Shown here one piece after another: positions 1,267 to 15,823 of a DNA stretch of 49,764 bases. Numbering within the stretch: the stretch's first letter is position 1; the number at the start of each line of letters is the position of its first letter. The stretch covers positions 1-49,764 of the forward strand of contig JAENWD010000289.1 in NCBI GenBank assembly GCA_016650245.1, read 5' to 3'. The notes below the pieces were generated by a model. That model worked only from the letters and a program-made list of their open reading frames with translations, made no database searches and was not told where the DNA came from. A program made the translations under genes and the position numbers. This DNA comes from Vicinamibacteria bacterium. GTDB taxonomy: Bacteria; Acidobacteriota; Vicinamibacteria; Vicinamibacterales; JAENWD01.

Positions 1267-1522
1267 GAGGGTGGAGGACACGATGCACGCTCGAGCCGCG
1301 CCTTGCGGATCCTGGCGCCCAATGCGTCGACGGCGCGCCTGATCTCCGGGATTTTTCACCAAAACCCGTTCCAGATGTGACGTTCCCGTAAACTCCGTCC
1401 TCGCCGCCCAACGTTTTCCCTCGTCGCAACCGACGCGTTACATCCTCGTCACGACCGCCTCCTAGCATTTCAAAGACTCGCGCCGGCACTCTGTTGAAGA
1501 CGATTTCGTTCCGCCGGCGCAA

Positions 1523-4500: not shown

Positions 4501-4699
4501 GGTGCGCCTCGAGATGTTCAACATCGCCAATCACTTGAACTACGAGAACCCTGCCTCGTCGCTCCCCAACGGGGCGCCCGGTGCCGCATTCACGGACGCG
4601 CAGGCCGGCACGTTCGGCTACATGCTGGGGCCGCTGAACCGCACCGTCGGGCAGGGCACCGCACGGCAGACGCAGGTTTCGATTCGGTATACGTTCTGA
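1523..4699 (+). CDS. TonB-dependent receptor with N-terminal carboxypeptidase-regulatory-like domain
   Basis: 1058-aa ORF with a signal peptide (VVRLVGLLALLAYGLPASLTAQ). It has a CarboxypepD_reg-like segment (GRALDESKAALPGVTITVTSKQTGAIRTVVTDADGSYVV) and a plug-like NGRNFANLMTLAPG. The barrel ends ...QTQVSIRYTF with a terminal aromatic. The track start 1523 is TTG; GTG at 1538, preceded by GGAGAG, is an equally good start. Confidence 0.85.
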   Translation: MESITVKLTSVVRLVGLLALLAYGLPASLTAQQTESRIVGRALDESKAALPGVTITVTSKQTGAIRTVVTDADGSYVVTTLGPGAYTTQYELPSFQTQARDVVVGVGEVKTVDITLSVGGVAEQIVVTAAAQTLDMSSAKIGVNVSPEEVQNLPVNGRNFANLMTLAPGATSDGNGGWASVRFNGKSNQQNYLNYDGVDGTYVWDASPGYLNATGSQFRLQTSMESVAEFRVNSGLAPAESGLGAGGNITVVIKSGSNRFRGSVFDYFRNDALDSASTYDDKKQDLSLSQFGGSIGGPIARNKTFFFGSFEGLRQTTGLSFTEAVPSDLARARVLAGLPVGSGSGQSAARTQAVAPLLAGFPLGTVATANQYLALASQVTEARQDENSLSLRLDHAINSTNTFYLRYLYSKGEVDTPDRTVTPRRVLAKQNPQNAVANYQTVFGSSLVNEFKVGYNAPETSATAFGSLGYDATGVSLSGTVTSQSIDARGSTGIARSGLLIRATSASSTTGSIFDPRSLSFSNALTWSKGAHTVKFGAEYRTLQSDFQFLGSTEITYNSITDFIDNRPNAYAVALDSPVFKPQQYYLIGYAQDSWRVADTLTLELGVRYDFYSVVKEKDGNAKPFFIEENDFSSDPDNFYDADRNNVAPRLSAAYEINDKTVVRGGFGLYYGPGQFEDRIQPIENSIERRRVGASDIPSNGLAYPIVPVQLRNQLSIRGYTHARPDEYNMQYGGSVSRELPGEFNLTVGYTGSRGKDMFLRGVANVLNPATRTRQVPAYGQIDYKTSGCLDQTINGFPVIGCGKASYDALQVGVTRRFRAGLTGGLQYQYSRNKGTTQGSNEAATTQNTFDYETEYGTNPQDIPHTFNGSLVYQLPGESFWTGGWRVGGIVNARTGVPINVTINRPDNITVSGATVVNIPGGNSRGTQRPNLVPGVDPYLKDGVRWLNPSAFATPQPGTFGNLPRNFLRGPNFWQADLMLSKDFRFMQTQGIQVRLEMFNIANHLNYENPASSLPNGAPGAAFTDAQAGTFGYMLGPLNRTVGQGTARQTQVSIRYTF

Positions 4700-5807: not shown

Positions 5808-5981
5808 GTGAGGGAGAGTAACCGAAAGGCCCGACTATCTGCCCCCTGATGTGGTTTCTGAAGCGAAAGCCATGACAACCGTGTAACGTACTGGCGGCCG
5901 GCTGCCCGCGACTCTGGTAAGATTCGAGGGTTTGTCCCGCCTTCGCCAGGGCTACGGCGGGCAGGCTCTGAAAGGACCCTT

Positions 5982-6602
5982 GTGGCACGGTTTCGCCTGA
6001 TCCCCCGTGAAGAGAAGTTCTACGCCGATTTCCTCACGCTGGCCGACCAGATTGTCGCCGCGGCCGCGGCGCTCGACCGCATGCTCGCCACTGAGATCCC
6101 CGACTGGGAGGTGGCCCTGCAGATCCACGACATCGAGAATGACTGTGACGGAATCACGCACGCGGTCATTCAGCGCCTCAACCGCACGTTCGTGACCCCG
6201 ATCGACCGCGAAGACATCCATCAATTGGCGCGGTCGCTCGACGACGTGATTGACGCCATCGACGCCGCCGCCACGGTGATCCGGCGCTACCGCGTGATGC
6301 CGGTCCGTTACGGCGCTCGCGAGCTGGCGACGATCATCGTCAAGTCGACGCACAAGGTCCGTATGGCCGTCGACGCGCTCGAGCGCAAGCACGGCGTCCA
6401 TGAGCACGCCGTCGAGGTGAATCGCCTCGAGAACGAAGCCGACCGCATGCACGACGAAGCGCTGCGCCGGCTGTTCGAGGAAGAGCACGACCCGATTACC
6501 GTCATCAAGTGGAAGGAAGTGCTCGATTTCCTCGAAGAGGCGACCGATCGGTGCGAGGACGTGGCCGACGTCCTTGAAGGCGTCGTCGTCAAGCACGGCT
6601 AG
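5982..6602 (+). CDS. DUF47 / PhoU-like phosphate-transport regulator (TIGR00153-type)
   Basis: 206 aa with a GTG start preceded by AAAGGA. The N-terminus RFRLIPREEKFYADFLTLADQI and the helical repeats with E/D-x-x-x-D motifs (ENDCDGITHAV, ENEADRMHDEA) fit this family. It sits immediately upstream of a PiT transporter, the classic DUF47-pit pairing. Confidence 0.75.
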   Translation: MARFRLIPREEKFYADFLTLADQIVAAAAALDRMLATEIPDWEVALQIHDIENDCDGITHAVIQRLNRTFVTPIDREDIHQLARSLDDVIDAIDAAATVIRRYRVMPVRYGARELATIIVKSTHKVRMAVDALERKHGVHEHAVEVNRLENEADRMHDEALRRLFEEEHDPITVIKWKEVLDFLEEATDRCEDVADVLEGVVVKHG

Positions 6603-6616
6603 CAGGTCGCCCTTCG

Positions 6617-7606
6617 ATGGAATTTGCTGCCGTCGCCTTCCTCATCCTGGTCGCGCTGACCTTCGACTACATCAACGGCTTTCACGACGCCGCCAACTCG
6701 ATTGCCACCGTCGTCTCGACCAGAGTGCTGTCGCCTGGCAAGGCGGTGATCTGGGCGGCCTTCTTCAACTTCGCGGCCGCCTTTGGTTTCGGGACCGCCG
6801 TGGCCAAGACGGTGGGCTCGGGCATGATCGACATCCGCGAAGTCACCTTCCTGGTGATCTTCGCCGGCCTGTTTGCCGCGATCGTGTGGGATCTGATCAC
6901 CTGGTACTACGGGCTGCCCACCAGCTCGTCGCACGCGCTCATCGGCGGCTACGCCGGTGGCGCGGTGGCCAAGGCCGGCGTTGGGGCAATCATCGTGTCG
7001 GGCTGGACCAAGACCCTCATCTTCATCGTGTTGGCGCCGACGATTGGCCTGGTGCTCGGCTTTGGGCTCATGGTCGCGATCTTCTGGCTGTTCCGCGGCT
7101 TCGCGCCGTCGAAAGTGGACCGCTGGTTCCGGCGTCTCCAGCTGGTGTCGGCTGCGGCGTATAGCCTGGGTCACGGCGCCAACGACGCGCAGAAGACGAT
7201 GGGCATCATCGCCGGGGTGCTGCTGGCCGGCGGCTACCTGACGGTCTTCGAGATCCCCTTCTGGGTTGTGCTTGCGGCGCACGGTGCGATCGCGCTGGGC
7301 ACGCTGACCGGCGGCTGGCGCATCATTCACACGATGGGCTCGAAGATCACGCGGCTGCAGCCGGTGGGCGGCTTTGCCGCCGAGACCGCCGGCGCCGTGT
7401 CGCTGTTCCTTGCCACGAGCCTCGGCGTTCCGGTCAGCACCACCCACACCATCACCGGCGCCATCGTCGGGGTCGGCGCGACCAGGCGCCTGTCGGCCGT
7501 TCGCTGGGGCATCGCCGGCAGGATCGTGTGGGCGTGGATTCTGACGATTCCCGCCTCCTTCTTCATCGCCGCGGTCACGTATTGGACGCTGTCTCACGTT
7601 CTCTAG
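6617..7606 (+). CDS. pit: Inorganic phosphate transporter, PiT (PHO4) family
   Basis: 329-aa membrane protein carrying the PiT signature twice (FDYINGFHDAANSIATVVSTRVL and AAYSLGHGANDAQKTMGII). Confidence 0.9.
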   Translation: MEFAAVAFLILVALTFDYINGFHDAANSIATVVSTRVLSPGKAVIWAAFFNFAAAFGFGTAVAKTVGSGMIDIREVTFLVIFAGLFAAIVWDLITWYYGLPTSSSHALIGGYAGGAVAKAGVGAIIVSGWTKTLIFIVLAPTIGLVLGFGLMVAIFWLFRGFAPSKVDRWFRRLQLVSAAAYSLGHGANDAQKTMGIIAGVLLAGGYLTVFEIPFWVVLAAHGAIALGTLTGGWRIIHTMGSKITRLQPVGGFAAETAGAVSLFLATSLGVPVSTTHTITGAIVGVGATRRLSAVRWGIAGRIVWAWILTIPASFFIAAVTYWTLSHVL

Positions 7607-7610
7607 AACC

Positions 7611-7757
7611 GGTTCGGTCTGGTTGGGCCGGGTTGGGTCTGGTTCGGCCAGGTTGATCTCGGTTGGCCCGGGTTCCACGCCCTGGCTGCCGGGCAACGGG
7701 TTCAACCAGGCTCAACCGACATCAACCCGACCTGACCTGACCGAACCCGATCAACCC
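7611..7757. repeat. Inverted pair of about 10-nt tandem arrays (GGTTNGGNCN x7 at 7611-7680; complementary CAACCNGANN units at 7713-7757), family C
   Basis: Read directly. The left array is in exact 10-nt register (ggttcggtct ggttgggccg ggttgggtct ggttcggcca ggttgatctc ggttggcccg ggttccacgc). The reverse complement of the right array (gggttgatcgggttcggtcagg...) is the same family. The pair fills the pit/phoR convergent spacer, and the phoR stop (7751-7753) lies inside the last unit. Confidence 0.85.
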
Positions 7758-9514
7758 TTCCCGTCCGCCTGCGGCAACCGCACCGTAAACACCGCCCCGC
7801 CTTCGGCACGCGAGCCAGCAGTGACGGCGCCGCCCAGCAACTCGACCAGGTGCTTCACGATGGCCAGGCCGATGCCCGTCCCGCCCGGCGCGCGCGAGCG
7901 CGATTTATCCACGCGGTAGAACCGCTCGAAGACTCGTGTCAGGTCCGCCAGCGGGATGCCCGGCCCGTTGTCGAGCACGCGGAGCACCAGCGCCAGCGGC
8001 TCGCGCTCGGCTTCCACCACCACGTGTCCGCCCTCGGGCGCGTAGTTGACCGCGTTCTCGATCAGGTTCCGCAAGACGTCGTGCAGCTTGGCCGGGTCCG
8101 ACACCACCGTGCGCGCGCCTGCGGCCAACCTCACCTCGACCTGTGACCTGCGCTGGTCGATCGGGCCGGTCAGATCGGCGATCACGCCTTGGAGCACCGA
8201 GCCCAGGTCGCACTCGACCATGTCTGGCGTTTCCTGTCCGGCATCGAGTCGCGCCAGTCGAAGCAGGTCCTTCACCAGGCGCTCCATACGGATCGAGTGG
8301 CGCGCGATGATCTCCAGGAAGCGCCGGCTCTGCTCGGGCGGCGGTGGGTCGTCGAGCAGCGCCTCGACATAGCCGCGAATCGCCGTGAGCGGCGTGCGCA
8401 ATTCGTGGGAGACATTGGCGACGAAATCGCGCCGCACTCGATCGGCGCGCCGCAGGTCGCTGATGTCGTGCAGGACGAGAATCGCGCCGCCTTCCGGCTC
8501 GCCAGCCGGCGCCGCGCGCGAGACGCACGTGCGTGATGGATCGCGCGCAAGCACGAACTCCACGCCTCCAGGGGCCTCGCCGTCCAGCGCATGCGCGATC
8601 TGCGCAAACAGCTCGGGCTGCCGCATCCACTCCTGATACCGCCGCCCTGTCGAGTCGCCGTCGAGCTTGAGCATCCCGCTGGCCGCGTCGTTGGCCATGA
8701 CGAGTCGGCCCTGCGGGTCGAGCACGACGACCCCTTCGACCATCCCCGAGAGAATCGCGCGCAGGTGGCGCCGGTCGTGGGCAAGGTCGTCGACGCGCCG
8801 GCCCAGCTCGTGGACGGTGGCATCGAGCGCGCGCGCCACCTCGCCCAGCTCGTCGTCGCCGTACCCGGCGGCCGGGCGCGTGAGGTCGCCGGTGGCGTAG
8901 CGGCGCGCCACCAAGGCGATCGCTTCGACGCGTCGCCCAATGGGCGCAGACACGAGCCACGCGCAGAGTGCGGCCACGGGCAGCGACGCCGCCACGCCGG
9001 CCACGACCAGCCACAGCACGGCCCACTGCTGATCGGCCACCTCCGTCAGAGGCAGCGACAAGCGCACGAAAGCGATTGTCGGATGGTCGATGCGGACGAC
9101 GGCGTACAACGTGTCGTAGTCGGTGGTGGTGCTGTAGCGCCGAATCAGCACTTCCGGTCGTGCGCGCGCGGCTTGAATCTCCGGGCGTCGGCCGTGGTTC
9201 TCCATGGCCGCCAGCGCCGCGCCGTCCTCGGTGGAATCGCCTAACACCCGGCCGTCGTCGGCGACGAGCGTCACCCGGACACCCGCCAGACGACCCATGC
9301 GGTCGGCTTCCTCGTCGAGCTGATCGAGCGGCAGGGCCGGGTTGCGAGTGAGCAGCTCGGCGGCCAACCGCGTTTCGGCCGACAGTGTCGCCTCGATGCG
9401 TTCCACTGTGAGCCTGCGGATCCACGCCTGCAGCACCAGCCCGGCGGCCATTGCCGAGACGGCCCCGACGATGAAGGCGGCCAGGAACACCTTGCCCCGA
9501 AAACGCACGGTCAC
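7751..9514 (-). CDS. phoR: PhoR-like sensor histidine kinase (TM - periplasmic segment - TM - HAMP - PAS - HisKA - HATPase)
   Basis: The H-box RRDFVANVSHELRTPLTAIRGYVEAL is close to E. coli PhoR. N, G1 and G2 boxes are present (LRNLIENAVNY, LDNGPGI, GGTGIGLAIVKH). I place the start at GTG 9512-9514, just after the response-regulator stop. The 632-aa track ORF extends into the upstream gene. Confidence 0.8.
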   Translation of the reverse strand: MTVRFRGKVFLAAFIVGAVSAMAAGLVLQAWIRRLTVERIEATLSAETRLAAELLTRNPALPLDQLDEEADRMGRLAGVRVTLVADDGRVLGDSTEDGAALAAMENHGRRPEIQAARARPEVLIRRYSTTTDYDTLYAVVRIDHPTIAFVRLSLPLTEVADQQWAVLWLVVAGVAASLPVAALCAWLVSAPIGRRVEAIALVARRYATGDLTRPAAGYGDDELGEVARALDATVHELGRRVDDLAHDRRHLRAILSGMVEGVVVLDPQGRLVMANDAASGMLKLDGDSTGRRYQEWMRQPELFAQIAHALDGEAPGGVEFVLARDPSRTCVSRAAPAGEPEGGAILVLHDISDLRRADRVRRDFVANVSHELRTPLTAIRGYVEALLDDPPPPEQSRRFLEIIARHSIRMERLVKDLLRLARLDAGQETPDMVECDLGSVLQGVIADLTGPIDQRRSQVEVRLAAGARTVVSDPAKLHDVLRNLIENAVNYAPEGGHVVVEAEREPLALVLRVLDNGPGIPLADLTRVFERFYRVDKSRSRAPGGTGIGLAIVKHLVELLGGAVTAGSRAEGGAVFTVRLPQADGKG

Positions 9515-9516
9515 GA

Positions 9517-10215
9517 TTACGGCTCGGTCAGCTTGTAGCCGAACTGCTTCACGGTGATCAGGCCTTCGGCCAGCAGCGGCAGTTTCTCGCGCAGCCGTCG
9601 TACGTGCACGTCCACAGTGCGCGTGCCTCCGGTATACGAGTAGCCCCACACGTCCGAGAGCAGGAGATCGCGCGACAGCACGCGCCCCCGGTGCTCCAGC
9701 AGGTACTGCAGCAGCAGGAACTCCTTGGCCGTCAGCCGCACCTCGCCCCCGTCTAACGACACGGTATGCCGATCGACGTCGACGGTGAGCGGGCCGAAGC
9801 GCAGCAGGCCCGGCGGGCTGGCGCGGTGCGCGCGGCGCAGCAGCGCGCGCACGCGCGCGACCACTTCGTTTGGGCTGAATGGCTTGGTGATGTAGTCGTC
9901 AGCGCCCAACTCGAGCCCGACGATGCGGTCCGACTCCTCCGCGCGGGCAGTCAGCATGATGATCGGCACCGCCGCCGTGCGTGGATCACCGCGCAAGGTG
10001 CGGCACACCTCGAGGCCATCAAGGCCGGGCAACATCAGGTCGAGCAGCACCAGATCGGGCAGCGACCGGCGCACCGCGGGCAGCACCTCGGCGCCGGACC
10101 GCAGCAGGTCCACGGCAAACCCGGCCCGGCCCAGGCTATGGCTGAGCAGGTGTGCGATATCGTGGTCGTCTTCGACCACCAGAAGACGCGGTGGGGGGGC
10201 GGACGAAGCGGGCAT
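9517..10215 (-). CDS. phoB: PhoB-like OmpR-family response regulator
   Basis: The receiver domain (LLVVEDDHDI...DLVLLDLMLPGLDG) and MLTARAEESDRIVGLELGADDYITKPFSPNEVVARV are nearly colinear with E. coli PhoB as I recall it. The winged-helix C-terminus carries TRTVDVHVRRLREKL. ATG at 10215 is the likely start (track 10251). Confidence 0.8.
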   Translation of the reverse strand: MPASSAPPPRLLVVEDDHDIAHLLSHSLGRAGFAVDLLRSGAEVLPAVRRSLPDLVLLDLMLPGLDGLEVCRTLRGDPRTAAVPIIMLTARAEESDRIVGLELGADDYITKPFSPNEVVARVRALLRRAHRASPPGLLRFGPLTVDVDRHTVSLDGGEVRLTAKEFLLLQYLLEHRGRVLSRDLLLSDVWGYSYTGGTRTVDVHVRRLREKLPLLAEGLITVKQFGYKLTEP

Positions 10216-10422
10216 GAGCGCCGGCAGCAGTATACGTTGCTGACGCGGCACGGCAGCGGGATGTCGTTTTTACCGTCCTCTCCACATCGCAGCGCTGAGC
10301 CGAGCGCAGAGGACACCTTTCCTGGCGGCAGCATGAATGCCGGGGAATTATGCGGTGCGGTGCTTTGGCATCGATGTTGATGGATAGGCAGGGCAGAAGC
10401 TCCCCACTTCGTGGAGGTTGCC

Positions 10423-10872
10423 ATGCGAACGACTGTAGCTGCCATCGCAGGAGCCCTGCTGGCGACGTTGGGACTGGCCGTCGTGCAGACACGGACCAGC
10501 ATGCCGGTGCAAACCCCTGGTGCGATGTCGGCCGCGTGGCCCGGCCTGACTGGCGCGCAACCCGTGGGCCTTTCCACCGCTGGATTGGCGACTGCCGTTC
10601 AGATGGGCGCCCAGCCGCTCGCCGCCGGTGACATCGTCGAGTACCGGCCCAGAGCGCAGGCTGTGCGCTACGTGCAGGACGAGCCCGTACGTCGAGCCGT
10701 GGCACGCACCGCGCCCAGGCGTTCGTGGCAGAAGACGGCGCTCGTGATCGGCGGATCGGCAGGCGCCGGCGCGGGAATCGGCGCGCTGGCCGGCGGCAAG
10801 AAGGGCGCGCTCATCGGCGCCGCCATCGGCGGCGGCGCGGGTTCGATCTTCGAGGCGTTCAAGCGGCGGTGA
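10423..10872 (+). CDS. Secreted/membrane glycine-zipper protein
   Basis: ATG at 10423 lies 5 nt after GGAGG. It has a signal peptide (MRTTVAAIAGALLATLGLAVVQ) and a C-terminal Gly-zipper (LVIGGSAGAGAGIGALAGGKKGALIGAAIGGGAGSIF). Confidence 0.6.
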   Translation: MRTTVAAIAGALLATLGLAVVQTRTSMPVQTPGAMSAAWPGLTGAQPVGLSTAGLATAVQMGAQPLAAGDIVEYRPRAQAVRYVQDEPVRRAVARTAPRRSWQKTALVIGGSAGAGAGIGALAGGKKGALIGAAIGGGAGSIFEAFKRR

Positions 10873-11542
10873 CCCAGTACACGCCCAACGCGATCGAGGC
10901 GACCGCCGTCACCATCGCCGCACCACGGCCGACGGCGGCCGCCATCACCTGTGAGCCGAGCACGCGCGACAGCATGATCCCGAACAGCGACATCGCCAGC
11001 AGGATGCCCGCCGCGAAGACGCCCACCAGATAGAGCAGCGTCAGCAGCGACGCGGTGGCGACGTCTGGGGACAACTCAGGCCCGAGCAGGGTCAGGGCGC
11101 GAAGGCCGCTGACGGCAAACACGGCGCCCAGCAGGCCCGCGCGGCGCGAGTGTGCAGGTGGCGACGGATGGCGGTCGCGCCGGCCGAAATGCACGTGCCA
11201 GTGGCGCCACCCCGCGCGGTGCGTGTGGCCGTACAGCCGCTCGGCGGCCACGACCCACAATGTGAAGGCGCCCATCAGAATCAACAGCACGCCGCCGACA
11301 ATCTCCCCGGCCCGCTCGACCAGGGCCGGGATCTGCCAGCCCAGCACAAGGACGGCGCCGGCGCCCACCAACAGGACCAACGCGTGGCCGAGGGCAAAAC
11401 GGATCGCGACGCGAATCGGCTCGCGTCGCCCGGCGCCGGGCGAGCCGTCGGTGTTGACGGCGAGCGCCGCGATGGCCATGAGGTGGTCGGCGCCCAGGCC
11501 GTGGAGGAAGCCAAGCGAGAGCGCCGTGGCGGTAAGAATCAC
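10859..11542 (-). CDS. Putative nickel/cobalt permease (NiCoT/UreH-like, 6 TM) with His-rich loop
   Basis: 227 aa with a GTG start. The N-terminal GFLHGLGADHLMAIAAL resembles the HX4DH signature of NiCoT/UreH permeases. The central loop YGHTHRAGWRHWHVHFGRRDRHPSPPAH is His-rich. Confidence 0.5.
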   Translation of the reverse strand: MILTATALSLGFLHGLGADHLMAIAALAVNTDGSPGAGRREPIRVAIRFALGHALVLLVGAGAVLVLGWQIPALVERAGEIVGGVLLILMGAFTLWVVAAERLYGHTHRAGWRHWHVHFGRRDRHPSPPAHSRRAGLLGAVFAVSGLRALTLLGPELSPDVATASLLTLLYLVGVFAAGILLAMSLFGIMLSRVLGSQVMAAAVGRGAAMVTAVASIALGVYWVTAA

Positions 11543-11560: not shown

Positions 11561-13219
11561 CTAGCGGTCGACTCCGACAAGCGCCCACCCAGTGCCCGCG
11601 CGGCGGAACACGACGGTGGTGGGGGTGGCCCAGCCGGTGTGCGTGGGGTGATCGCCAGTCAGCGTGGCCTGGACGAAGTCGCCCGAAAGCGCCTCGCGTG
11701 GGGCGGTGGCGCGCGTCTCGGTGACGACCTGCGGCTCCCCGACGGGCGTTGCGGTGCCGGTGGCGTTGTCAAATCGTGCCCAGGCAACCTTGTAGCCGCG
11801 GCCCGCCGTCGCCGTCCTGGTCTCGACGGCGATATTACGAAACGTCAGCGCGCCCTCTGCAGTCAGGTCGAAGTCGTCCACGGGCAACACGACGTTCAGC
11901 CAGAGTTGGCCGATCTTGTCGCGACGCGTGATGAGGGTCTGCGCCATGTACGCCGTGGCTTCCGGATCTGAGAATTCAGCCGTCCGGCTGACCTCGAGGA
12001 TCGCCTCGTCGGAGAAGGCCATCACGCCGCGGGCACCCCATAACAAATCGTCGGGCCCTGTGTTGTCGAAGGCCGGATTTGGATATTCCGGCTTCCAGCG
12101 CTCGGGACGGAAGTAGTTGGCCTCGAAGCGCCCGACGGCCGGCAGGTCCGGGTAGTGCACTTTCAGCCACGGCCGCACGTAGAAACCCAGCGTGATCATC
12201 GAGATCAGCGTCGGCCGCGCTTCCCAGATGTACTCGTTGCCGGCGCGTGTCCCCTGGGCGCGGGTGCTGCCGCTGCCCAGCGTCGAACCGAAGTCGATCA
12301 GGTAATGCCGGACGATCTTGCGGGGGCCGGCGTCCTGCAGGAAATCGCGCGTGTTGATGGCGCGGCTGTCGTCGTGATTCAGCCAGGCGCCGAACACGCG
12401 CATCGCGCGCAGCTCGCGGCGATGCTCGTGTGGATGGATGTCGTTAGGATCATCGGGTCGCGTCCCGTAGTACCTGAACGGGCCGATGTCCTTGCCTGTG
12501 ATGCCCTTGCTGGCGACCACCCGATAACTGCCGTCGGCATGGCGCGCCGCCTTGAGCAGCAGCGCGTCGACATCGGCCTCGGTCATCGCCCGGGTGCGGC
12601 CGTGCTCGTCGTCCAGCATCGTGTTGGGCGCGATGCGCAAGTCGTCGCGGCGCAACGACGCCAGGTAGTTCTCCGGCACATTGAACCCCAGTGCCCAGAA
12701 CAGCCGCGTCGAGATCACTTCGGCGCCGGTGGCCATCTCGGGGTTCGACGGCGGGTCGAACTTCACGAAGTAGAGCGTGCCCGTGCTGTCGCGCACGGTC
12801 ATGCCGGGCGAGATGCCTTCGCTCTTGGCGTCGACGATCGTCCAGATGCCGGATTGCGGCGGCTGACCGCGATAGGGACCGCGAATGACGTCCTCCACCG
12901 ACAGCACTTCGGCGGTGCCCAGACGCTGGGTGTACCAGCTCGAGTTGGGGACATGGTCGATCGTGTTGAGGTTGACAGCGCGCTGGTCTTTCTGTTCGCC
13001 CGCATTGAGGAAGCTGTTCTCGAGGAAGTCGTACTGGTCGCTGAGGTCGATCTCTTTCACACCCGAGGCGTCCTGGGTCTCCGGGTCTTCGTGCAGCGGG
13101 TCGTCGTCGTAGAAGCGCGGGGCCACGCCGTCTACGGCCGACACCGACGCGGTCAGCAGAGCCGCGCCAAGGAGTGCACCGAGACGCCAGGGTCGGAGAG
13201 TCACGTCAGAACGCTCCAC
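11561..13219 (-). CDS. Secreted hypothetical protein with protein-kinase-like catalytic motifs
   Basis: 552 aa with a signal-peptide-like N-terminus (RPWRLGALLGAALLTASVSAV). Kinase-like motifs occur in the canonical order: LYFVKF (Lys153), GAEVISTRLF (Glu167), NHDDSRAIN (HxDxxxxN, 282-289) and LIDFGSTLG (DFG, 309-311). The track start 13219 is GTG; an alternative GTG at 13204 lies 9 nt after GGAG. Confidence 0.55.
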   Translation of the reverse strand: MERSDVTLRPWRLGALLGAALLTASVSAVDGVAPRFYDDDPLHEDPETQDASGVKEIDLSDQYDFLENSFLNAGEQKDQRAVNLNTIDHVPNSSWYTQRLGTAEVLSVEDVIRGPYRGQPPQSGIWTIVDAKSEGISPGMTVRDSTGTLYFVKFDPPSNPEMATGAEVISTRLFWALGFNVPENYLASLRRDDLRIAPNTMLDDEHGRTRAMTEADVDALLLKAARHADGSYRVVASKGITGKDIGPFRYYGTRPDDPNDIHPHEHRRELRAMRVFGAWLNHDDSRAINTRDFLQDAGPRKIVRHYLIDFGSTLGSGSTRAQGTRAGNEYIWEARPTLISMITLGFYVRPWLKVHYPDLPAVGRFEANYFRPERWKPEYPNPAFDNTGPDDLLWGARGVMAFSDEAILEVSRTAEFSDPEATAYMAQTLITRRDKIGQLWLNVVLPVDDFDLTAEGALTFRNIAVETRTATAGRGYKVAWARFDNATGTATPVGEPQVVTETRATAPREALSGDFVQATLTGDHPTHTGWATPTTVVFRRAGTGWALVGVDR

Positions 13220-14501
13220 TGAAGGAGGTGTTGAACCGCACGCCCTCCTGCCGGCTGCGGGCGATGTCGAATCGCAGGAACACGCTCCTGAAGGTGTTGA
13301 ACCGGAAACCGAGGCCGTAGTCGTTCTTCAGGTGCTTGAAGTCGATCTCGTCCCAGGTGGGCGCGACGTTGCCCCAATCACCGAACAGCGCCATGTCGAG
13401 GCCCGAGAAAGCCTCCCAGCGATACTCGGCGTTGAGCAGGAAGGCGCTGGCGTCGCGGTAGCGGAACTCGCTGAACCCTCGCAGCGTCGTCGAACCTCCC
13501 AGCGTGGGCATGGCAAAAAACGGCACCGTGTTGCCCGAGGGGCTGTCGAGCGAGTACGCGATCGCCCGCGCGATGATGACGCGCTTCTTGTCGAAGATCG
13601 GAAACGCGTGCAGCGCCTCCGCGCGCAGCTCGTTGAAGCTGTAGCCGAAGTCCTGCCGGTCGCGCCAGACGTCGTAGCTGACGCGGAAGTGGCCTCCGCT
13701 CTTCACATTGGCCCGCTGGTCGCGATAGTCGATATCGACAAACGCGCCCGACCACCAATAATCGGGCTGCCGCGTCAGGCCGGGGGCCGTGGCTTCCGTG
13801 AAGCGCTCGTCGATGGGCGGAAGGCCCGGATACTTGCCCTCGTCGACCCGCTCGGTGCGGAACGCCGTCAACGCGCCGAGCCTGAACCACCGCGTGGGCT
13901 TGTAGGCGGCGTCGCCGCGCACTTCCCACCCCTCTCTGAGGAAGGTGGAGCTGGCCTCCTTCTCGACGTCCGGGCCCAGCCCGTAGTACCGCTCGCGCGG
14001 CCAGTAGCGCAGGTAGCCATGACCGCCAAGCTCGACCTTACCGCCGGCGATCTTCGGGAAGGTCAGCTCGCTCGTCATGAACCAGTAGTTGCGGAACGAC
14101 CCGACGAACCAGGTGTGGAACAGCGCCTGCTCGCCAAACAGCCAGTTCTTGTATCCAGGGCCCATGCCGAGGCCGCCGCCTTTGGTGAGGCCACCGAAGT
14201 GGAAATACCAGCCCTCGTACGGCTTGAACAGCCTCGTGGTGAACCGCGAGTCCTCCATCCAGAGGAGCCCGGATTCGAGCTTTCCGGGTGCGTATGGCGC
14301 CAGTGCCTTCGCCTTCTCGGCGCGCTGGACCTCGAGTGCTTCGCGCCGCGAGGTCTGCGCCGAGCCGGGCGCGGCGGCCGAGACCACCAGGATCAAGGCG
14401 ATCATCAGGCGCCAGACGGCGGCCTGGGGTCGAGCGTCGTGCGAGCCATGCATACGAGACTTGGCACGGTACGTCTGCCGCCGATCAATGTCAAACGTCA
14501 C
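13206..14501 (-). CDS. Omp85/BamA-TamA-family outer-membrane beta-barrel without recognisable POTRA domains
   Basis: It has a signal peptide (WRLMIALILVVSAAAPGSAQ) and a Bac_surface_Ag-like C-terminal half (PTLGGSTTLRGFSEFRYRDASAFLLNAEYRW...FGDWGNV...YGLGFRF). It ends ...TSFSGAF with a terminal Phe. The start is GTG 14501 (GTGA overlap with the MFS stop) or ATG 14453. Confidence 0.65.
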   Translation of the reverse strand: MTFDIDRRQTYRAKSRMHGSHDARPQAAVWRLMIALILVVSAAAPGSAQTSRREALEVQRAEKAKALAPYAPGKLESGLLWMEDSRFTTRLFKPYEGWYFHFGGLTKGGGLGMGPGYKNWLFGEQALFHTWFVGSFRNYWFMTSELTFPKIAGGKVELGGHGYLRYWPRERYYGLGPDVEKEASSTFLREGWEVRGDAAYKPTRWFRLGALTAFRTERVDEGKYPGLPPIDERFTEATAPGLTRQPDYWWSGAFVDIDYRDQRANVKSGGHFRVSYDVWRDRQDFGYSFNELRAEALHAFPIFDKKRVIIARAIAYSLDSPSGNTVPFFAMPTLGGSTTLRGFSEFRYRDASAFLLNAEYRWEAFSGLDMALFGDWGNVAPTWDEIDFKHLKNDYGLGFRFNTFRSVFLRFDIARSRQEGVRFNTSFSGAF

Positions 14502-15823
14502 GCGTCGGCAGGCACGTCACGCCGGAGGAGAAACCACAACGCGACCACCGACAGCAGCACGCCGTTGATCGCGATGGCGGCAGGGGCGCCGATGCGGTCG
14601 ATGACCAGGCCGGTCACCAGACTGCCAAGCGGCATCCCGCCGCGGAACGCCATCATGTAGATGCTCATCACGCGGCCCCGCATCTGGTTGGGCGCGGTGA
14701 GCTGCACCAGCGACGTGAACAGGGAGAACACCACCATCAACGCCGCGCCGGCCACGGCCAGCAGCGCGTAGCTGATCCAGAGCGCGCGCGTGTAGGCAAA
14801 CGCGACCGTCAGCGCTCCAAACAGCACCTGCCCCGAGAGCGCCGTGACGCCCATGCGGCTGAAGCGTCCCATCCAGGCCACCGCCAGCGCGCCGGCCACC
14901 GCGCCGACGCCCGACCATGCCATCATCTGGCTGTACTGGCCGACGCCTCCGTGAAAGACGCTGCGCGCAAATACCGGAAGGAAGGTCAGCAGCGGCACGC
15001 CGAGAAACGTCGAGGCCAGCGCGAGTACGGTGAGCGTGCGAATCGCCGGCTCGTCACGCACGTACACCAGTCCGGTTCGCAGCTCGTCGAGCATGCGTCG
15101 CTGGCCCACCGGCGCGACGTGCGGCGTGTTCAGCGACAGCAGCGCCGCGATCACGACGAGAAACGACAGGCCGTTGACCGTGAAGCACGACGCGCTTCCC
15201 AGCGAGTGCAGCGTCACCCCGGCAAGCAGCGGTCCGATCACGCGCGCGATGTTGAACTGGATCGAGTTGAGCGCGACGGCGTTGGGCAGGTGGTCCTTGT
15301 GGACCAGCGACGGAATCAGCGACTGATACGCCGGGCCGCCAAAGGCCTGCGCGCACCCGGAGAGAAACGACAGCGCAAGCACGTGCCAGATCTGCACCCA
15401 GCCGCCGAAGACCAGGACCGCCAGCGCGAAAGCCGACGACATCTGCACGACCTGCGAGGCCAGCAGCAACACGCGGCGGTCGCGCCGATCGGCGACCACG
15501 CCGCCGATCAGCGTGAACAGCAGAATCGGCAGTTCGCCCAGAAACGCGTCGAGTGCGAGATAGCTGGCGGAGTTGGTCAACTCGAGGACCAGCCAGCTCT
15601 GCGCAACCTTCTGCATCCAGGTGCCGATACTCGACGTGCAGGCGCCCATCCACAGCACCCGGAAGTCGCGGTAGCCGAGCGCTGCGGCCAGCCGCTGCAC
15701 GATCGGCCCGCCAATGTTGGGGGTGACGGGGAGAGCAGGACCTGAGGCCGGCGCGGAATCCACGAGGAGCGATCTTATAAGAATTGCAGATTGCAGATTG
15801 CAGATTGACGATTGAGATGTCAC
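14498..15823 (-). CDS. MFS transporter (EntS/MFS_3-like)
   Basis: About 12 predicted TM helices with an N-terminal YRDFRVLWMGACTSSIGTWMQ motif. The 15823 (GTG) start reads through the heptamer array and leaves only 8 nt to the divergent gene. An internal GTG at 15700 (VQRLAAALGYRDF...) is a plausible true start. Confidence 0.75.
   Translation of the reverse strand: MTSQSSICNLQSAILIRSLLVDSAPASGPALPVTPNIGGPIVQRLAAALGYRDFRVLWMGACTSSIGTWMQKVAQSWLVLELTNSASYLALDAFLGELPILLFTLIGGVVADRRDRRVLLLASQVVQMSSAFALAVLVFGGWVQIWHVLALSFLSGCAQAFGGPAYQSLIPSLVHKDHLPNAVALNSIQFNIARVIGPLLAGVTLHSLGSASCFTVNGLSFLVVIAALLSLNTPHVAPVGQRRMLDELRTGLVYVRDEPAIRTLTVLALASTFLGVPLLTFLPVFARSVFHGGVGQYSQMMAWSGVGAVAGALAVAWMGRFSRMGVTALSGQVLFGALTVAFAYTRALWISYALLAVAGAALMVVFSLFTSLVQLTAPNQMRGRVMSIYMMAFRGGMPLGSLVTGLVIDRIGAPAAIAINGVLLSVVALWFLLRRDVPADA
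15783..15817. repeat. Heptamer tandem array (ATTGCAG x3, ATTGACG, ATTGAGA), family A in reverse orientation
   Basis: Read directly. It lies in the divergent region between the MFS gene and the heparinase-like gene (ATG 15832). Confidence 0.85.

What the first reader, a model, noticed from the sequence alone, without database searches (positions are those of the whole stretch)
11561..13219. Extracytoplasmic protein carrying the full set of protein-kinase catalytic motifs
The motifs occur in order and with near-canonical spacing. LYFVK153F is a VAIK-like Lys. GAE167VISTRLF is an alpha-C-like Glu, 14 residues later. H282-D-D284-SRAI-N289 matches HxDxxxxN of the eukaryotic-like kinase catalytic loop exactly. 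LID309FG is a DFG, 25 residues after the catalytic Asp. The protein begins with a hydrophobic signal-peptide-like segment and has a C-terminal region of about 150 aa with beta-rich character. A kinase-fold enzyme exported to the periplasm or cell surface is unusual because ATP is scarce there. It might instead use another phosphodonor, act as a pseudokinase or binding module, or be delivered outside the cell.
Basis: partly seen in the sequence, partly recalled or inferred. Interest (0 to 1): 0.7.

Follow-up and report, generated by a model that had tools for sequence, protein, structure and literature searches.

The report
Exported kinase-fold protein paired with Omp85
This soil acidobacterium encodes a protein with a kinase fold and a secretion signal, always beside its own outer-membrane barrel gene; in relatives the pair sits next to ATP/ADP transporters, so ATP-driven phosphorylation outside the cytoplasm may occur and can now be tested.

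Summary
The ORF is on the minus strand (11561-13219, 552 aa; the true start is probably GTG 13204). All quoted motifs are present.

**Fold.** An AlphaFold model built on 110 homologues (pLDDT 96.6) is a protein-kinase-like fold. It is closest to HipA-type kinases: H. pylori CtkA is the top hit, then Fam20C, HipT, Rio2 and Vps34. Pfam, NCBIfam and PDB sequence searches do not recognise the window protein. Diverse homologues give only weak HipA_2/HipA_C hits.

**Family.** It is large and unnamed (4,499 clusters at 50% identity), in Acidobacteriota, Omnitrophota and Zixibacteria. An N-terminal hydrophobic signal segment is conserved in 126 of 130 homologues.

**Context.**
- A short Omp85 barrel gene without POTRA domains lies immediately upstream in 84 of 85 loci.
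- In the window the pair sits beside PhoB/PhoR-like and Pit/PhoU-like genes.
- In paralogues and distant phyla it is joined to genuine NTT/TLC ATP/ADP exchangers (19 loci) and PAP2 phosphatases (13 loci plus one fusion).

**Best reading.** It is an exported, probably active HipA-like kinase working at the envelope with its barrel partner. Substrate and phosphate donor are unknown.

**Caveats.** K153, D284 and N289 are lost in some branches. No Pho-box-like motif precedes the operon.

The parts
11561..13219 (-). Gene for the exported kinase-fold protein ('T'). It is 552 aa as the longest ORF; the probable true start is GTG at 13204 (547 aa).
   Evidence: ORF. Start-codon context. Homologue N-termini. 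AF2 models. Foldseek.
13136..13219 (-). Residues 1-28: Sec-type signal segment with Arg-containing n-region, hydrophobic core LGALLGAALLTASVSA and VSA|V cleavage-type site. No Cys, so not a lipoprotein.
   Evidence: Sequence. Hydrophobic N-terminal window in 126/130 homologues against 2/130 for the control region.
12860..13135 (-). Residues 29-120: conserved, mostly non-regular N-terminal extension (DDDP..DPETQDAS..YDF.EN.F...RA.N.NT.D.VP.SSW.T.R).
   Evidence: Invariant columns. pLDDT is 81 for the first ten modelled residues (29-38) and 95 or more for most later ten-residue blocks, dipping to 82-84 in two of them.
11885..12859 (-). Residues 121-445: protein-kinase-like core. It contains the beta1-beta2 loop K132-x2-G135-x2-P-G139, K153, E167, the catalytic loop H282-D284-N289 (12353-12376) and D309-F-G (12287-12295). 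It also contains the family's most invariant residues: H264, R267, R268, R271, H305 and G315.
   Evidence: Translations. Conservation. Fold matches. Weak HipA_2/HipA_C hits in homologues.
11564..11884 (-). Residues 446-552: C-terminal beta-sandwich domain resembling the FN3/monobody fold.
   Evidence: Strands. Foldseek match to a monobody chain, 6zz8_G, with TM 0.64 normalised to the target.
13206..14501 (-). Partner gene: a 431-aa Omp85-family outer-membrane barrel with a signal peptide, a short N-terminal helix, an LRGF loop-6-type motif and no room for POTRA domains. Its stop lies 1 nt before GTG 13204 and overlaps the 13219 start.
   Evidence: Pfam Omp85 1.3e-6. NF047779 2.4e-18. The family profile matches only the barrels of BamA and TamA, over 410 profile positions. 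It is immediately upstream on the same strand in 84/85 loci, median gap 12.5 nt.
14498..15823 (-). MFS_3 (EntS-like) transporter gene whose stop overlaps the Omp85 start. Its real start is probably near 15701. It is part of the same transcription unit in this genome and is found in 17 of 89 related loci.
   Evidence: Pfam MFS_3 5.6e-73. Sequence. Counts.
10859..11542 (-). NicO-like His-rich membrane protein gene, 19 nt downstream of T on the same strand. It is linked only in the closest relatives.
   Evidence: Pfam NicO 4.3e-5, below the gathering score. Synteny.
9517..10251 (-). PhoB-like OmpR-family response regulator gene. In many orthologous loci it lies directly downstream of T on the same strand.
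   Evidence: Best NCBIfam match is PhoB TIGR02154, 231 bits, below the 296 cut-off. Synteny.
7751..9649 (-). PhoR/PnpS-like sensor histidine kinase gene. The longest ORF overlaps the regulator gene, so the true start is probably internal.
   Evidence: Pfam domains. NCBIfam PnpS 7e-96 and PhoR 6.6e-86, both below their cut-offs.
5982..7606 (+). PhoU_div (5982-6602) and PHO4/Pit-type phosphate transporter (6617-7606) genes. They are linked to T modules of two different paralogue groups.
   Evidence: Pfam. Synteny.

Best explanation
T is an exported member of the protein-kinase-like superfamily. It represents a large, so far unnamed branch related to HipA/CtkA-type Ser/Thr kinases. It keeps the residues needed to bind a nucleotide-Mg complex and transfer its phosphate: the K132 loop, K153-E167, D284, N289 and D309.

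It works outside the cytoplasm as one half of an obligate two-gene module with a POTRA-less Omp85 barrel. The barrel either anchors T at the inner face of the outer membrane or moves it to the surface.

The most likely chemistry is nucleotide-dependent phosphotransfer to an envelope component: a protein, or a lipid or glycolipid phosphate.

In related modules the nucleotide supply could come from NTT/TLC ATP/ADP exchangers encoded in the same operon. A PAP2 phosphatase and a Pit-type transporter could recycle the phosphate. In this window the module instead sits with an MFS_3 exporter and next to PhoBR-like and Pit/PhoU-like genes, which ties it to phosphate handling.

Shown: fold, motif conservation, the conserved N-terminal hydrophobic segment, Omp85 pairing, and NTT, PAP2 and Pit neighbourhoods.
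Inferred: export, catalysis, location at the outer membrane, direction of nucleotide transport, substrate.
For: Fold
- AF2 pLDDT 96.6, pTM 0.94.
- Foldseek top hits are CtkA (E 1e-4, probability 1.0), Fam20C, HipT, Rio2, HipA and Vps34. The first, poorer model also hit kinases.
- Sequence echo: 12 of 75 diverse homologues hit Pfam HipA_2 (best 3e-4) and 6 hit HipA_C. No other family hit more than 2.

Motifs
- Invariant in 38 close homologues.
- The canonical set (K, E or D, D, N, D at 153/167/284/289/309) is kept in about two thirds of the 148 distant representatives.
- All T proteins in NTT- or PAP2-linked loci keep K132, D284, N289 and D309.
- Chance of the motif pattern is about 3e-4.

Export
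- N-terminal hydrophobic segment in 126/130 homologues.
- Zero Cys.
- Fusion of a homologue to PAP2.

Omp85 pairing
- 84/85 loci, median gap 12.5 nt.
- 12 of 12 contexts looked up for individual homologues, some from other phyla (Omnitrophota, Zixibacteria).

NTT
- 13/13 neighbour proteins hit Pfam TLC (best 4.5e-16).
- Their profile hits ADP,ATP carrier protein 1 (9j3n, 5.8e-29) and the chloroplast NTT (9j3j, 1.3e-20).
- Present in 19 of 89 loci, including Omnitrophota and two other distant lineages, where it lies directly downstream of T.

PAP2
- In 13 loci, lying directly downstream of T in at least seven of them, plus one fusion.

Phosphate genes
- RR+HK in 24 loci and PHO4/PhoU_div in 24 loci, the latter linked to two paralogue groups.
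Against: - There is no biochemical evidence of any kind.
- The window itself contains no NTT or PAP2 gene, so the ATP-supply argument comes from paralogues and distant orthologues.
- K153 is Glu in a whole clade of about 22 loci. Roughly 13-15% of distant representatives have lost K153, D284 or N289.
- The residues that never vary (H264, R268, R271, G315; also D257, D260, D391, W394) are not the canonical catalytic ones. The function shared by the whole family may therefore be binding or assembly rather than catalysis.
- Degenerate members still have the Omp85 partner.
- The window protein has no significant sequence match to any Pfam, NCBIfam or PDB entry.
- hhalign against E. coli HipA found nothing.
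- The direct-repeat motif found upstream of PhoU_div-PHO4 is absent upstream of Omp85-T and of the regulator gene.
- The signal peptide was judged by simple rules, not by a trained predictor.
Confidence: 0.5

Rival explanations
1. Nucleotide or organophosphate scavenging. T binds, or hydrolyses or transphosphorylates, extracellular nucleotides that reach the periplasm. PAP2 releases phosphate, the Pit-type PHO4 transporter imports it, and NTT-family carriers import the nucleotides. The kinase fold serves as a nucleotide-handling module rather than as a kinase acting on an envelope substrate.
For: - Recurrent linkage to PhoU_div-PHO4 in two paralogue groups.
- Linkage to PhoB/PhoR-like genes.
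- Linkage to PAP2.
- Linkage to NTT carriers. Some characterised NTT carriers are net nucleotide importers; this rests on prior knowledge of the family, and NTT function in free-living bacteria is unknown (PMC5381601).
Against: - A catalytic Asp, Asn and DFG set is conserved where a binding protein would not need it.
- Omp85 barrels are not known as nucleotide channels.
- No Pho-box-like motif lies upstream of the Omp85-T operon.
- Many T modules have no phosphate gene nearby.
Confidence: 0.22
2. Pseudokinase or structural partner. The conserved job of the family is to bind the Omp85 barrel, as a plug, periplasmic adaptor or substrate-recognition module that replaces the missing POTRA domains. 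Phosphotransfer would be absent or incidental.
For: - Omp85 pairing is universal, whereas the catalytic residues are not.
- The invariant residues are H264, R268, R271, G315, D391 and W394 rather than K153, D284 and N289.
- The partner barrel lacks POTRA domains.
- Degenerate members keep the partner.
Against: - In the window protein and all its close relatives the full catalytic set is invariant.
- In NTT- and PAP2-linked loci K132, D284, N289 and D309 are always kept, although K153 is Glu in five of them and E167 varies in three.
- Linkage to ATP/ADP carriers and phosphatases is hard to explain without nucleotide chemistry.
Confidence: 0.18
3. Secreted HipA-like toxin or effector. The Omp85 partner exports T in the manner of two-partner secretion, and T then acts on other cells.
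For: - The closest structural relative, CtkA, is described as a cell-translocating kinase (title of the PDB entries).
- HipA-family kinases are growth-arresting toxins (prior knowledge).
- An Omp85 transporter is adjacent.
Against: - No immunity or antitoxin gene is conserved next to it.
- The partner has no POTRA domains, and no Pfam family of any kind (hence no TPS domain) is detected in T.
- The family is conserved like a housekeeping gene (47-90% identity across an order, 1-3 copies per genome), not like a polymorphic toxin.
- Its neighbours are envelope and phosphate genes.
Confidence: 0.05
4. Chance motif match in an unrelated fold, or an ordinary cytoplasmic HipA toxin with a mis-called start.
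For: The window protein itself has no hit in any sequence profile library.
Against: - The high-confidence model is a kinase fold.
- The motif pattern is rare by chance.
- There is no internal Met before residue 140.
- The hydrophobic N-terminus is conserved in 126/130 homologues.
Confidence: 0.02

Closest known systems
HipA-like Ser/Thr kinases (E. coli HipA, HipT of HipBST, H. pylori CtkA; Pfam HipA_C and HipA_2)
   Same: - Best structural matches: CtkA 3akk/3akj (E 1e-4), HipT 7ab3, HipA 4pu5.
- The only recurrent, though weak, Pfam hits among homologues.
- Catalytic-loop and DFG-type Asp spacing of 25 residues. From memory, HipA's D309-D332 spacing is 23; this was not tested here.
   Different: - No profile hit for the window protein; hhalign against HipA is negative.
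- It has a signal peptide, a conserved N-terminal extension of about 90 aa and a C-terminal beta-sandwich.
- It has no antitoxin partner. It is paired with an Omp85 barrel instead.
Fam20C/Fam20 secretory-pathway kinases (Golgi casein kinase)
   Same: Kinase-fold enzymes that carry a secretion signal and act outside the cytosol. They are the second-best group of structural matches (4kqb E 2.5e-3, 5xom E 3.9e-3).
   Different: - Eukaryotic and supplied with ATP in the Golgi lumen.
- No sequence-level relation detected.
- TM only about 0.34-0.40 normalised to the target.
CotH spore-coat kinases
   Same: Bacterial atypical kinase acting in an extracytoplasmic layer (prior knowledge; PMC7821199 was listed but not read).
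   Different: - No Pfam CotH hit.
- Not among the listed Foldseek matches.
- CotH acts in the mother cell and spore coat of Firmicutes, not in a diderm envelope.
Two-partner secretion and other Omp85 modules (TpsB/TpsA, TamA/TamB, BamA)
   Same: An Omp85 barrel gene sits directly beside the gene of a signal-peptide-bearing partner. The barrel is homologous to those of BamA and TamA.
   Different: - The partner barrel is only about 410 residues and has no POTRA domains.
- No Pfam family, and hence no TPS domain, is detected in T.
- T is a globular kinase fold, not a beta-helix.
LpxT/PAP2-type periplasmic phosphorylation of lipid A
   Same: The one well-described case of phosphorylation on the periplasmic side in Gram-negative bacteria (PMC2229476, listed). 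PAP2 genes are linked or fused to T.
   Different: LpxT is itself a PAP2 enzyme that uses undecaprenyl pyrophosphate, not a kinase-fold protein. No PAP2 gene is present in this window.
NTT-HEAT and single-domain NTT/TLC nucleotide transporters of free-living bacteria
   Same: The NTT genes next to T modules include the NTT-HEAT type. In L092 a cNMP-binding gene follows, the arrangement described by Major et al. 2017 (PMC5381601).
   Different: That paper reports their function as unknown, and a search of its text for 'kinase' and 'periplasm' found neither word. The linkage reported here is to paralogues and distant orthologues, not to this window's copy.

Membership tests
Protein-kinase-like (PKL) superfamily | Bilobal fold: beta-rich N-lobe with an alpha-C helix, and a helical C-lobe carrying the catalytic loop | tested here: met
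   AF2 model pLDDT 96.6, pTM 0.94. Nearly all of the top 50 Foldseek PDB matches are kinases or kinase-like proteins; best E 1.2e-4, probability 1.0, TM about 0.5 normalised to the target.
Protein-kinase-like (PKL) superfamily | Beta-3 Lys paired with an alpha-C Glu | tested here: met
   K153 lies on strand 149-154 and E167 in helix 162-176. Both are invariant in close homologues. K is kept in about 82% of distant representatives, and E or D at position 167 in about 84% of the sequences that cover it (117 of 140). A K153E clade exists.
Protein-kinase-like (PKL) superfamily | Catalytic loop D-x4-N, and a metal-binding Asp of a DFG motif about 20-25 residues later | tested here: met
   H282-D-D284-SRAI-N289 and LID309FG. 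Conservation: D284 about 83%, N289 about 87%, D309 about 97% among 148 representatives.
Protein-kinase-like (PKL) superfamily | Nucleotide binding and phosphotransfer activity | not testable with these tools
   Needs purified protein.
HipA family (Pfam HipA_C PF07804, HipA_2 PF20613) | Match to the family profile at or above the curated threshold | tested here: not met
   The window protein has 0 Pfam hits even at E up to 10. Only weak hits appear in 12 of 75 (HipA_2, best 3.1e-4) and 6 of 75 (HipA_C, best 0.012) homologues.
HipA family (toxin-antitoxin kinases) | Cytoplasmic toxin encoded beside a HipB/HipS-type antitoxin | tested here: not met
   T has a signal segment. Its neighbours are Omp85, transporters and PhoBR-like genes; no conserved small HTH gene is present.
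Fam20 secretory kinases | Sequence membership (no Pfam match at all to the window protein) and the Fam20-specific fold | tested here: not met
   No Pfam hit. Structural match is only E 2.5e-3 to 3.9e-3, with TM 0.34-0.40 normalised to the target.
Two-partner secretion (type Vb) | TpsB transporter with two POTRA domains and a TpsA cargo with an N-terminal TPS domain | tested here: not met
   The partner family profile is 410 positions long and aligns only with BamA and TamA barrels. T has no Pfam hit of any kind, so no TPS domain is detected, and its model is a globular kinase fold.
Omp85 superfamily (the partner gene) | 16-stranded barrel of the BamA/TamA type with a loop-6 (V/I/L)RG(F/Y) motif | tested here: met
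   Pfam Omp85 28.6 bits, above the 24 cut-off. The profile hits BamA and TamA barrels at 1e-9 to 1e-6. LRGF is present in the sequence. The strand count was not modelled.
Pho regulon member | PhoB-type direct-repeat box upstream of the operon | tested here: not met
   The motif TGTAACG-N4-TGTAACG lies upstream of PhoU_div-PHO4 in 11 of 20 loci by the strict pattern. It was also recovered in three loci not used to build the weight matrix. It is absent upstream of Omp85-T (0/25) and of the regulator gene (0/12). That this motif is the PhoB site is itself an inference.
Pho regulon member | Induction by phosphate limitation | not testable with these tools
   Needs expression data. Only gene neighbourhood is available.

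The most novel reading that the evidence does not exclude
Diderm bacteria of several phyla run an ATP-fuelled phosphorylation cycle outside the cytoplasm:
- An NTT/TLC exchanger in the inner membrane swaps cytoplasmic ATP for periplasmic ADP.
- The exported HipA-like kinase T, docked on its POTRA-less Omp85 barrel, phosphorylates an envelope protein or lipid.
- A PAP2 phosphatase reverses the mark.
- A Pit-type carrier returns the phosphate to the cytoplasm.

This would give the long-unexplained NTT and NTT-HEAT transporters of free-living bacteria a job. It would also overturn the working assumption that the periplasm has no ATP-dependent signalling.
Probability: 0.22. Interest if true: 0.9.

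Novelty: new variant of a known kind. Interest (0 to 1): 0.72.

Why it matters
Kinase-fold enzymes are thought to be confined to compartments that contain ATP. In bacteria the known exceptions act in spores or in host cells. This family is different in several ways:
- It is very large: 4,499 clusters at 50% identity.
- None of the homologues examined carries an informative name, and neither Pfam nor NCBIfam has a family for it.
- It carries an export signal.
- It is always paired with its own outer-membrane barrel.
- It is repeatedly encoded with ATP/ADP exchangers, PAP2 phosphatases and phosphate transporters.

If it is active, this would be the first dedicated phosphorylation system of the Gram-negative envelope with its own nucleotide supply. 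It would also suggest a function for NTT transporters in free-living bacteria, which a 2017 survey (PMC5381601) left open. If it is inactive, it would be a kinase-derived adaptor that stands in for the POTRA domains of an Omp85 protein, which would also be new. Either outcome can be tested with standard biochemistry, for example in a cultured relative that carries the module.

Tried and rejected
- **Sequence-profile identification failed.** Pfam and NCBIfam gave no hit for the window protein. PDB phmmer/hmmsearch with the single sequence, A1 and A2 gave nothing, or only noise such as pyruvate carboxylase at E 0.41. hhalign of A2 against E. coli HipA gave nothing.
- **First AF2 model was poor in the C-lobe.** It used 38 close homologues and reached pLDDT 72.9. 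It was replaced by a model built on 110 sequences.
It was rerun with A1.
- **A Pfam scan of A2** exceeded the residue limit. It was rerun on A5.
- **Pho-box hypothesis.** I derived a direct-repeat motif upstream of PhoU_div-PHO4 and scanned 1.3 Mb of loci and the window. There is none upstream of Omp85-T or of the regulator gene. Direct PhoB control of the operon is therefore not supported.
- **My crude GC3-based gene caller** missed many Omp85 genes and mis-set start codons. Pairing was re-counted with profile envelopes.
- **The 425-aa protein downstream of T in L093** is not an NTT.
- **Literature searches** for an Omp85-linked, periplasmic or extracytoplasmic kinase, and for an NTT-HEAT function, found nothing relevant.
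- **Toxin-antitoxin and chance-motif readings** were rejected; see the rival explanations.
Full report
**1. The observation.**

The interval 11561-13219 holds a single long ORF on the minus strand: 552 aa, starting at GTG 13219. The plus-strand translation is full of stops.
- LYFVK153F...GAE167
- H282-D-D284-SRAI-N289, then LID309FG

The catalytic-loop-plus-DFG pattern occurs once in the six-frame translation of the whole 49.8-kb window. It occurs in 7 of 20,000 shuffles of the protein. The full ordered motif set occurs in 4 of 20,000 shuffles.

The likely true start is the second GTG at 13204. GGAG lies 10 nt upstream, and the closest homologues are 547 aa and begin MTLRP. This start lies one base after the stop codon of the upstream gene.

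The N-terminus has Arg residues, a 16-residue hydrophobic core and a VSA|V site. The protein has no cysteine.

**2. What the protein is.**

No curated library recognises it. Pfam, NCBIfam and PDB sequence searches are empty or give noise.

It is nevertheless not an orphan. A word-indexed search found more than 7,700 relatives; every source name shown for them is 'hypothetical protein', and none carries a Pfam domain. An exhaustive profile search of 1.84 billion cluster representatives found 4,499 with E up to 1e-3 and 1,480 with E up to 1e-30. Named members come from Acidobacteriota (mostly Vicinamibacterales), Candidatus Omnitrophota and Zixibacteria.

A first AlphaFold model from 38 close homologues was mediocre in the C-lobe, with pLDDT 72.9. 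Its structural matches were already almost all kinases. A second model of residues 29-552 used 110 sequences down to about 31% identity and reached pLDDT 96.6 and pTM 0.94.

Foldseek against the PDB then gave, in order:
- the H. pylori kinase CtkA (six chains, E 1e-4 to 9e-4, probability 1.0, TM about 0.5 normalised to the target)
- Golgi casein kinase Fam20C and Hydra Fam20
- HipT
- two entries described only as bacterial kinases (7wcf, 7vkb)
- Rio2
- HipA
- Vps34
- SidJ

Independently, 12 of 75 diverse homologues gave weak Pfam hits to HipA_2 (best 3e-4) and 6 to HipA_C. No other family was hit by more than two members.

The protein is therefore a divergent, unnamed branch of the HipA-like part of the protein-kinase-like superfamily. 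It is flanked by a conserved N-terminal extension of about 90 residues and a C-terminal beta-sandwich of about 106 residues.

**3. Are the catalytic residues conserved?**

Among 38 homologues of 56-90% identity, K153, E167, H282, D284, N289 and D309 are invariant. So is a K132-x2-G-x2-P-G loop between the first two strands.

Among 148 representatives of 30-57% identity:

| Residue | Kept in |
|---|---|
| K153 | about 82% |
| E167 | E or D in about 84% of those covering it |
| D284 | about 83% |
| N289 | about 87% |
| D309 | about 97% |

About 13-15% have lost K153, D284 or N289. One Vicinamibacterales clade of about 22 loci has Glu at position 153 but keeps K132, D284, N289 and D309.

The residues that never change are H264, R268, R271 (with R267 nearly so; all lie at or near the start of the helix that precedes the catalytic loop), G315, D257, D260, D391 and W394; H305 is nearly invariant. 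I could not place these in three dimensions because model coordinates are not exposed. An Arg-rich cluster would suit a phosphorylated or anionic ligand, but it could equally be structural.

The window protein thus has everything an active kinase needs. The family as a whole includes probable pseudokinases.

**4. Export.**

No trained signal-peptide predictor was available. The evidence is as follows:
- A hydrophobic window of at least 12 residues in the first 57 residues is present in 126 of 130 homologues, despite no sequence conservation there. The same test on an internal control region gives 2 of 130.
- There is no internal Met before residue 140, so no cytoplasmic isoform is plausible.
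- The gene is translationally coupled to an outer-membrane protein gene (see section 5).
- One homologue (P0262) is fused to a PAP2 domain. I take PAP2 enzymes to act on the outer face of the cytoplasmic membrane from prior knowledge.

I regard extracytoplasmic location as very likely. It remains an inference.

**5. The obligate partner.**

The upstream gene (13206-14501, minus strand) is an Omp85-family protein.

I examined 89 non-duplicate loci. They came from a scan of GTDB species representatives and from look-ups of individual homologues. Of the 85 loci with at least 1.2 kb of upstream DNA, 84 have a member of this Omp85 subfamily on the same strand, ending a median of 12.5 nt before the start of the T match. 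The one exception is a frameshifted assembly that still contains the fragments. All twelve contexts looked up for individual homologues, some from other phyla, show the same pairing.

A profile of 35 partners is 410 positions long and aligns only with the barrels of BamA and TamA. After the signal peptide there is one short helix and then barrel strands, with an LRGF loop-6-type motif. There is no room for POTRA domains.

This is not a TpsB/TpsA pair. It is a new two-gene envelope module. Degenerate T proteins keep the partner as well.

**6. Wider context.**

In the window the order on the minus strand is:
- MFS_3 exporter, whose stop overlaps the Omp85 start
- Omp85
- T
- NicO-like membrane protein

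A small glycine-zipper gene on the plus strand follows. Then come a PhoB-like regulator and a PhoR/PnpS-like kinase on the minus strand, and PhoU_div plus a PHO4/Pit-type phosphate transporter on the plus strand.

Vicinamibacterales carry several paralogous modules:

| Group | Identity to the window protein | Gene order |
|---|---|---|
| A (includes the window) | 54% or more | Omp85 > T > phoB-like > phoR-like, with PHO4 and PhoU_div beside them; in the closest orthologues the regulator starts 0-133 nt after the T match |
| B | 51-59% | FtsX-like > Omp85 > T > GT87 glycosyltransferase > M1 peptidase > asparaginase > aminotransferase |
| C | 47-51% | NTT > Hanks-type kinase with a hydrophobic N-terminal region > NTT > Omp85 > T > PAP2, often followed by PhoU_div-PHO4 |
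| D (K153E clade) | 47-54% | little beyond the Omp85 partner |

The NTT assignment is solid. All 13 neighbours tested hit Pfam TLC (best 4.5e-16). Their profile matches the solved 'ADP,ATP carrier protein 1' (9j3n, 5.8e-29) and the chloroplast NTT (9j3j, 1.3e-20).

NTT genes are present in 19 of 89 loci. These include an Omnitrophota genome and two other distant lineages, where the NTT lies directly downstream of T. In one of them it is the NTT-HEAT plus cNMP-binding arrangement.

PAP2 genes are in 13 loci, lying directly downstream of T in at least seven of them, and one is fused to T.

The window itself has no NTT or PAP2 gene.

**7. Is the operon under Pho control?**

I found a clear direct-repeat motif, TGTAAC(G/A)-N4-TGTAAC(G/A)-N4-TGT..., with 11-bp spacing next to a -10-like element. 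It lies upstream of PhoU_div-PHO4 in 11 of 20 loci by the strict pattern. It also appears in three group-C loci that were not used to build the weight matrix.

It is absent upstream of Omp85-T (0 of 25) and upstream of the regulator gene (0 of 12). In the window only a degenerate copy precedes PhoU_div (5871-5891). One weak match lies upstream of a TonB-dependent-receptor-like gene (1425-1453).

The link between T and phosphate therefore rests on gene neighbourhood, not on a shared regulatory site.

**8. How it most likely works.**

Shown:
- kinase fold
- intact catalytic set in this protein
- conserved N-terminal hydrophobic signal-type segment
- obligate Omp85 pairing
- recurrent NTT, PAP2 and Pit neighbours

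Inferred:
- T is exported and sits at, or passes through, its barrel partner.
- It binds a nucleotide-Mg complex and transfers phosphate to an envelope protein or lipid phosphate.
- Where an NTT is encoded in the operon, that carrier exchanges cytoplasmic ATP for periplasmic ADP.
- PAP2 removes the phosphate, and Pit returns it to the cytoplasm.

I give about 0.5 to 'exported, catalytically active kinase-fold enzyme working with its Omp85 partner'. I give about 0.22 to the full ATP-cycle model.

Rivals:
- a nucleotide or phosphate scavenging device (0.22)
- a kinase-derived adaptor for a POTRA-less Omp85 protein, without catalysis (0.18)
- a secreted HipA-like toxin (0.05)
- chance match or a cytoplasmic HipA toxin (0.02)

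**9. Comparison with known systems and novelty.**

T works like a HipA/CtkA-type kinase at the level of fold and active-site layout. It fails the sequence-profile and toxin-antitoxin tests for HipA membership. It resembles Fam20C in being a kinase fold with a secretion signal, but it is not a Fam20 member. The pair resembles two-partner secretion only in gene order.

Literature searches found no description of an Omp85-linked or periplasmic kinase-fold family. The 2017 survey of NTT proteins states that the function of NTT and NTT-HEAT proteins in free-living bacteria is unknown (PMC5381601).

I classify the finding as a new variant of a known kind: a new family and a new genomic system within the kinase-like superfamily. 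There is a modest chance that the system is something categorically new.

**10. Verdict.**

The most interesting addition is the context: the universal Omp85 partner, and the repeated linkage to ATP/ADP exchangers and PAP2 phosphatases.

Interest 0.72.

Noticed in passing
L043, L053, L059, L062-L066, L068, L074, L076, L078-L082, L085 (7410-9620), L091 (7268-8611), L092 (8658-11321): Genuine NTT/TLC ATP/ADP-exchanger genes lie in the same operon as Omp85-T modules in 19 of 89 loci from at least three distant lineages. Both the roughly 450-aa single-domain type and the roughly 750-aa NTT-HEAT type occur. In L092 a cNMP-binding gene follows the NTT. None is present in the window.
   Followed up: yes
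L083 3628-5976 (P0262); also L043, L048, L053, L059, L064-L066, L071, L074, L076, L079, L093 (5671-6522): PAP2-superfamily phosphatase genes with KxxxxxxRP / PSGH / SRxxxxxHxxxD motifs are linked to T in 13 loci, lying directly downstream in at least seven, and one homologue is fused to PAP2. The best, weak NCBIfam matches are lipid A 1-phosphatase LpxE and undecaprenyl-diphosphatase.
   Followed up: partly
window 5871-5891 (+); loci L001, L004, L006, L010, L012-L014, L020, L031, L034, L053, L074, L079, L081: A direct-repeat motif, TGTAAC(G/A)-N4-TGTAAC(G/A)-N4-TGT.., with 11-bp period lies next to a -10-like element upstream of PhoU_div-PHO4. It is a candidate PhoB box of Vicinamibacterales. 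The window has only a degenerate copy (CATGACAACCGTGTAACGTAC). It is absent upstream of Omp85-T and of the regulator gene.
   Followed up: yes
window 1425-1453 (-): This is the only weight-matrix match of 12 bits or more to that motif in the whole window (18.1 bits; none in 5 shuffles). It lies between two TonB-dependent-receptor-like genes, just upstream of the 1058-aa OMP_b-brl_4 gene at 1523-4699.
   Followed up: no
window 15781-15807 (-): The heptamer CAATCTG is repeated three times in tandem, with a partial fourth copy. TTATAAG follows immediately. It sits in the short region between the MFS_3 gene (real start probably near 15701) and the divergent heparinase II/III-like gene (15832, +). 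Just upstream, CGTGACAT occurs twice, 15 nt apart.
   Followed up: no
window 13204 versus 13219 (-): The annotated longest ORF of T probably starts five codons too early. GTG 13204 has a GGAG 10 nt upstream and gives the 547-aa length and MTLRP start of the closest homologues. Likewise, the histidine-kinase ORF (7751-9649) overlaps the regulator gene by 133 nt, and the MFS_3 ORF extends about 120 nt too far.
   Followed up: partly
L037 (three modules), L055 (two modules); L020 and L023 (same MAG): Some genomes carry two or three Omp85-T modules side by side or on different contigs. In L037 two K153E-type copies sit next to one copy that keeps K153 but has Glu in place of D284. This is reminiscent of kinase/pseudokinase pairs.
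   Followed up: partly
L053, L059, L062, L074, L078, L079, L081 (gene between the two NTT genes): A Hanks-type Ser/Thr kinase with a hydrophobic N-terminal region of about 210 residues (inspected by eye only) is conserved between two NTT genes upstream of Omp85-T in group C. A cytoplasmic kinase and an exported kinase-fold protein thus share one operon.
   Followed up: no
L015, L017, L022, L027-L030, L033, L035, L036, L039, L040: A second paralogue group of T is followed by some or all of a GT87 (polyprenyl-phosphate-sugar-dependent) glycosyltransferase, an M1 peptidase, an asparaginase and an aminotransferase. It is often preceded by FtsX-like permeases.
   Followed up: no
L088 (P0142, 742 aa), L089 (P0212, 969 aa), L090 (P0171, 848 aa); also P0140 (1158 aa): Long family members carry 200-600 extra C-terminal residues with no Pfam match. 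Where checked, they have lost K153, D284 or N289 but still follow an Omp85 partner.
   Followed up: partly
window 10859-11542 (-) and 10411-10872 (+): A NicO-like membrane protein with a His-rich loop (HTHRAGWRHWHVHFGRRDRHP) lies 19 nt downstream of T. A convergent small glycine-zipper protein overlaps its end. Both are conserved only in the closest relatives (L011, L018, L038, L070).
   Followed up: no
L004, L019, L032, L048, L049: GTDB records titled 'uncultured Bifidobacteriaceae bacterium' (binchicken and SRP co-assemblies) carry Vicinamibacterales-type loci with the same synteny. The organism names in those titles look wrong.
   Followed up: no
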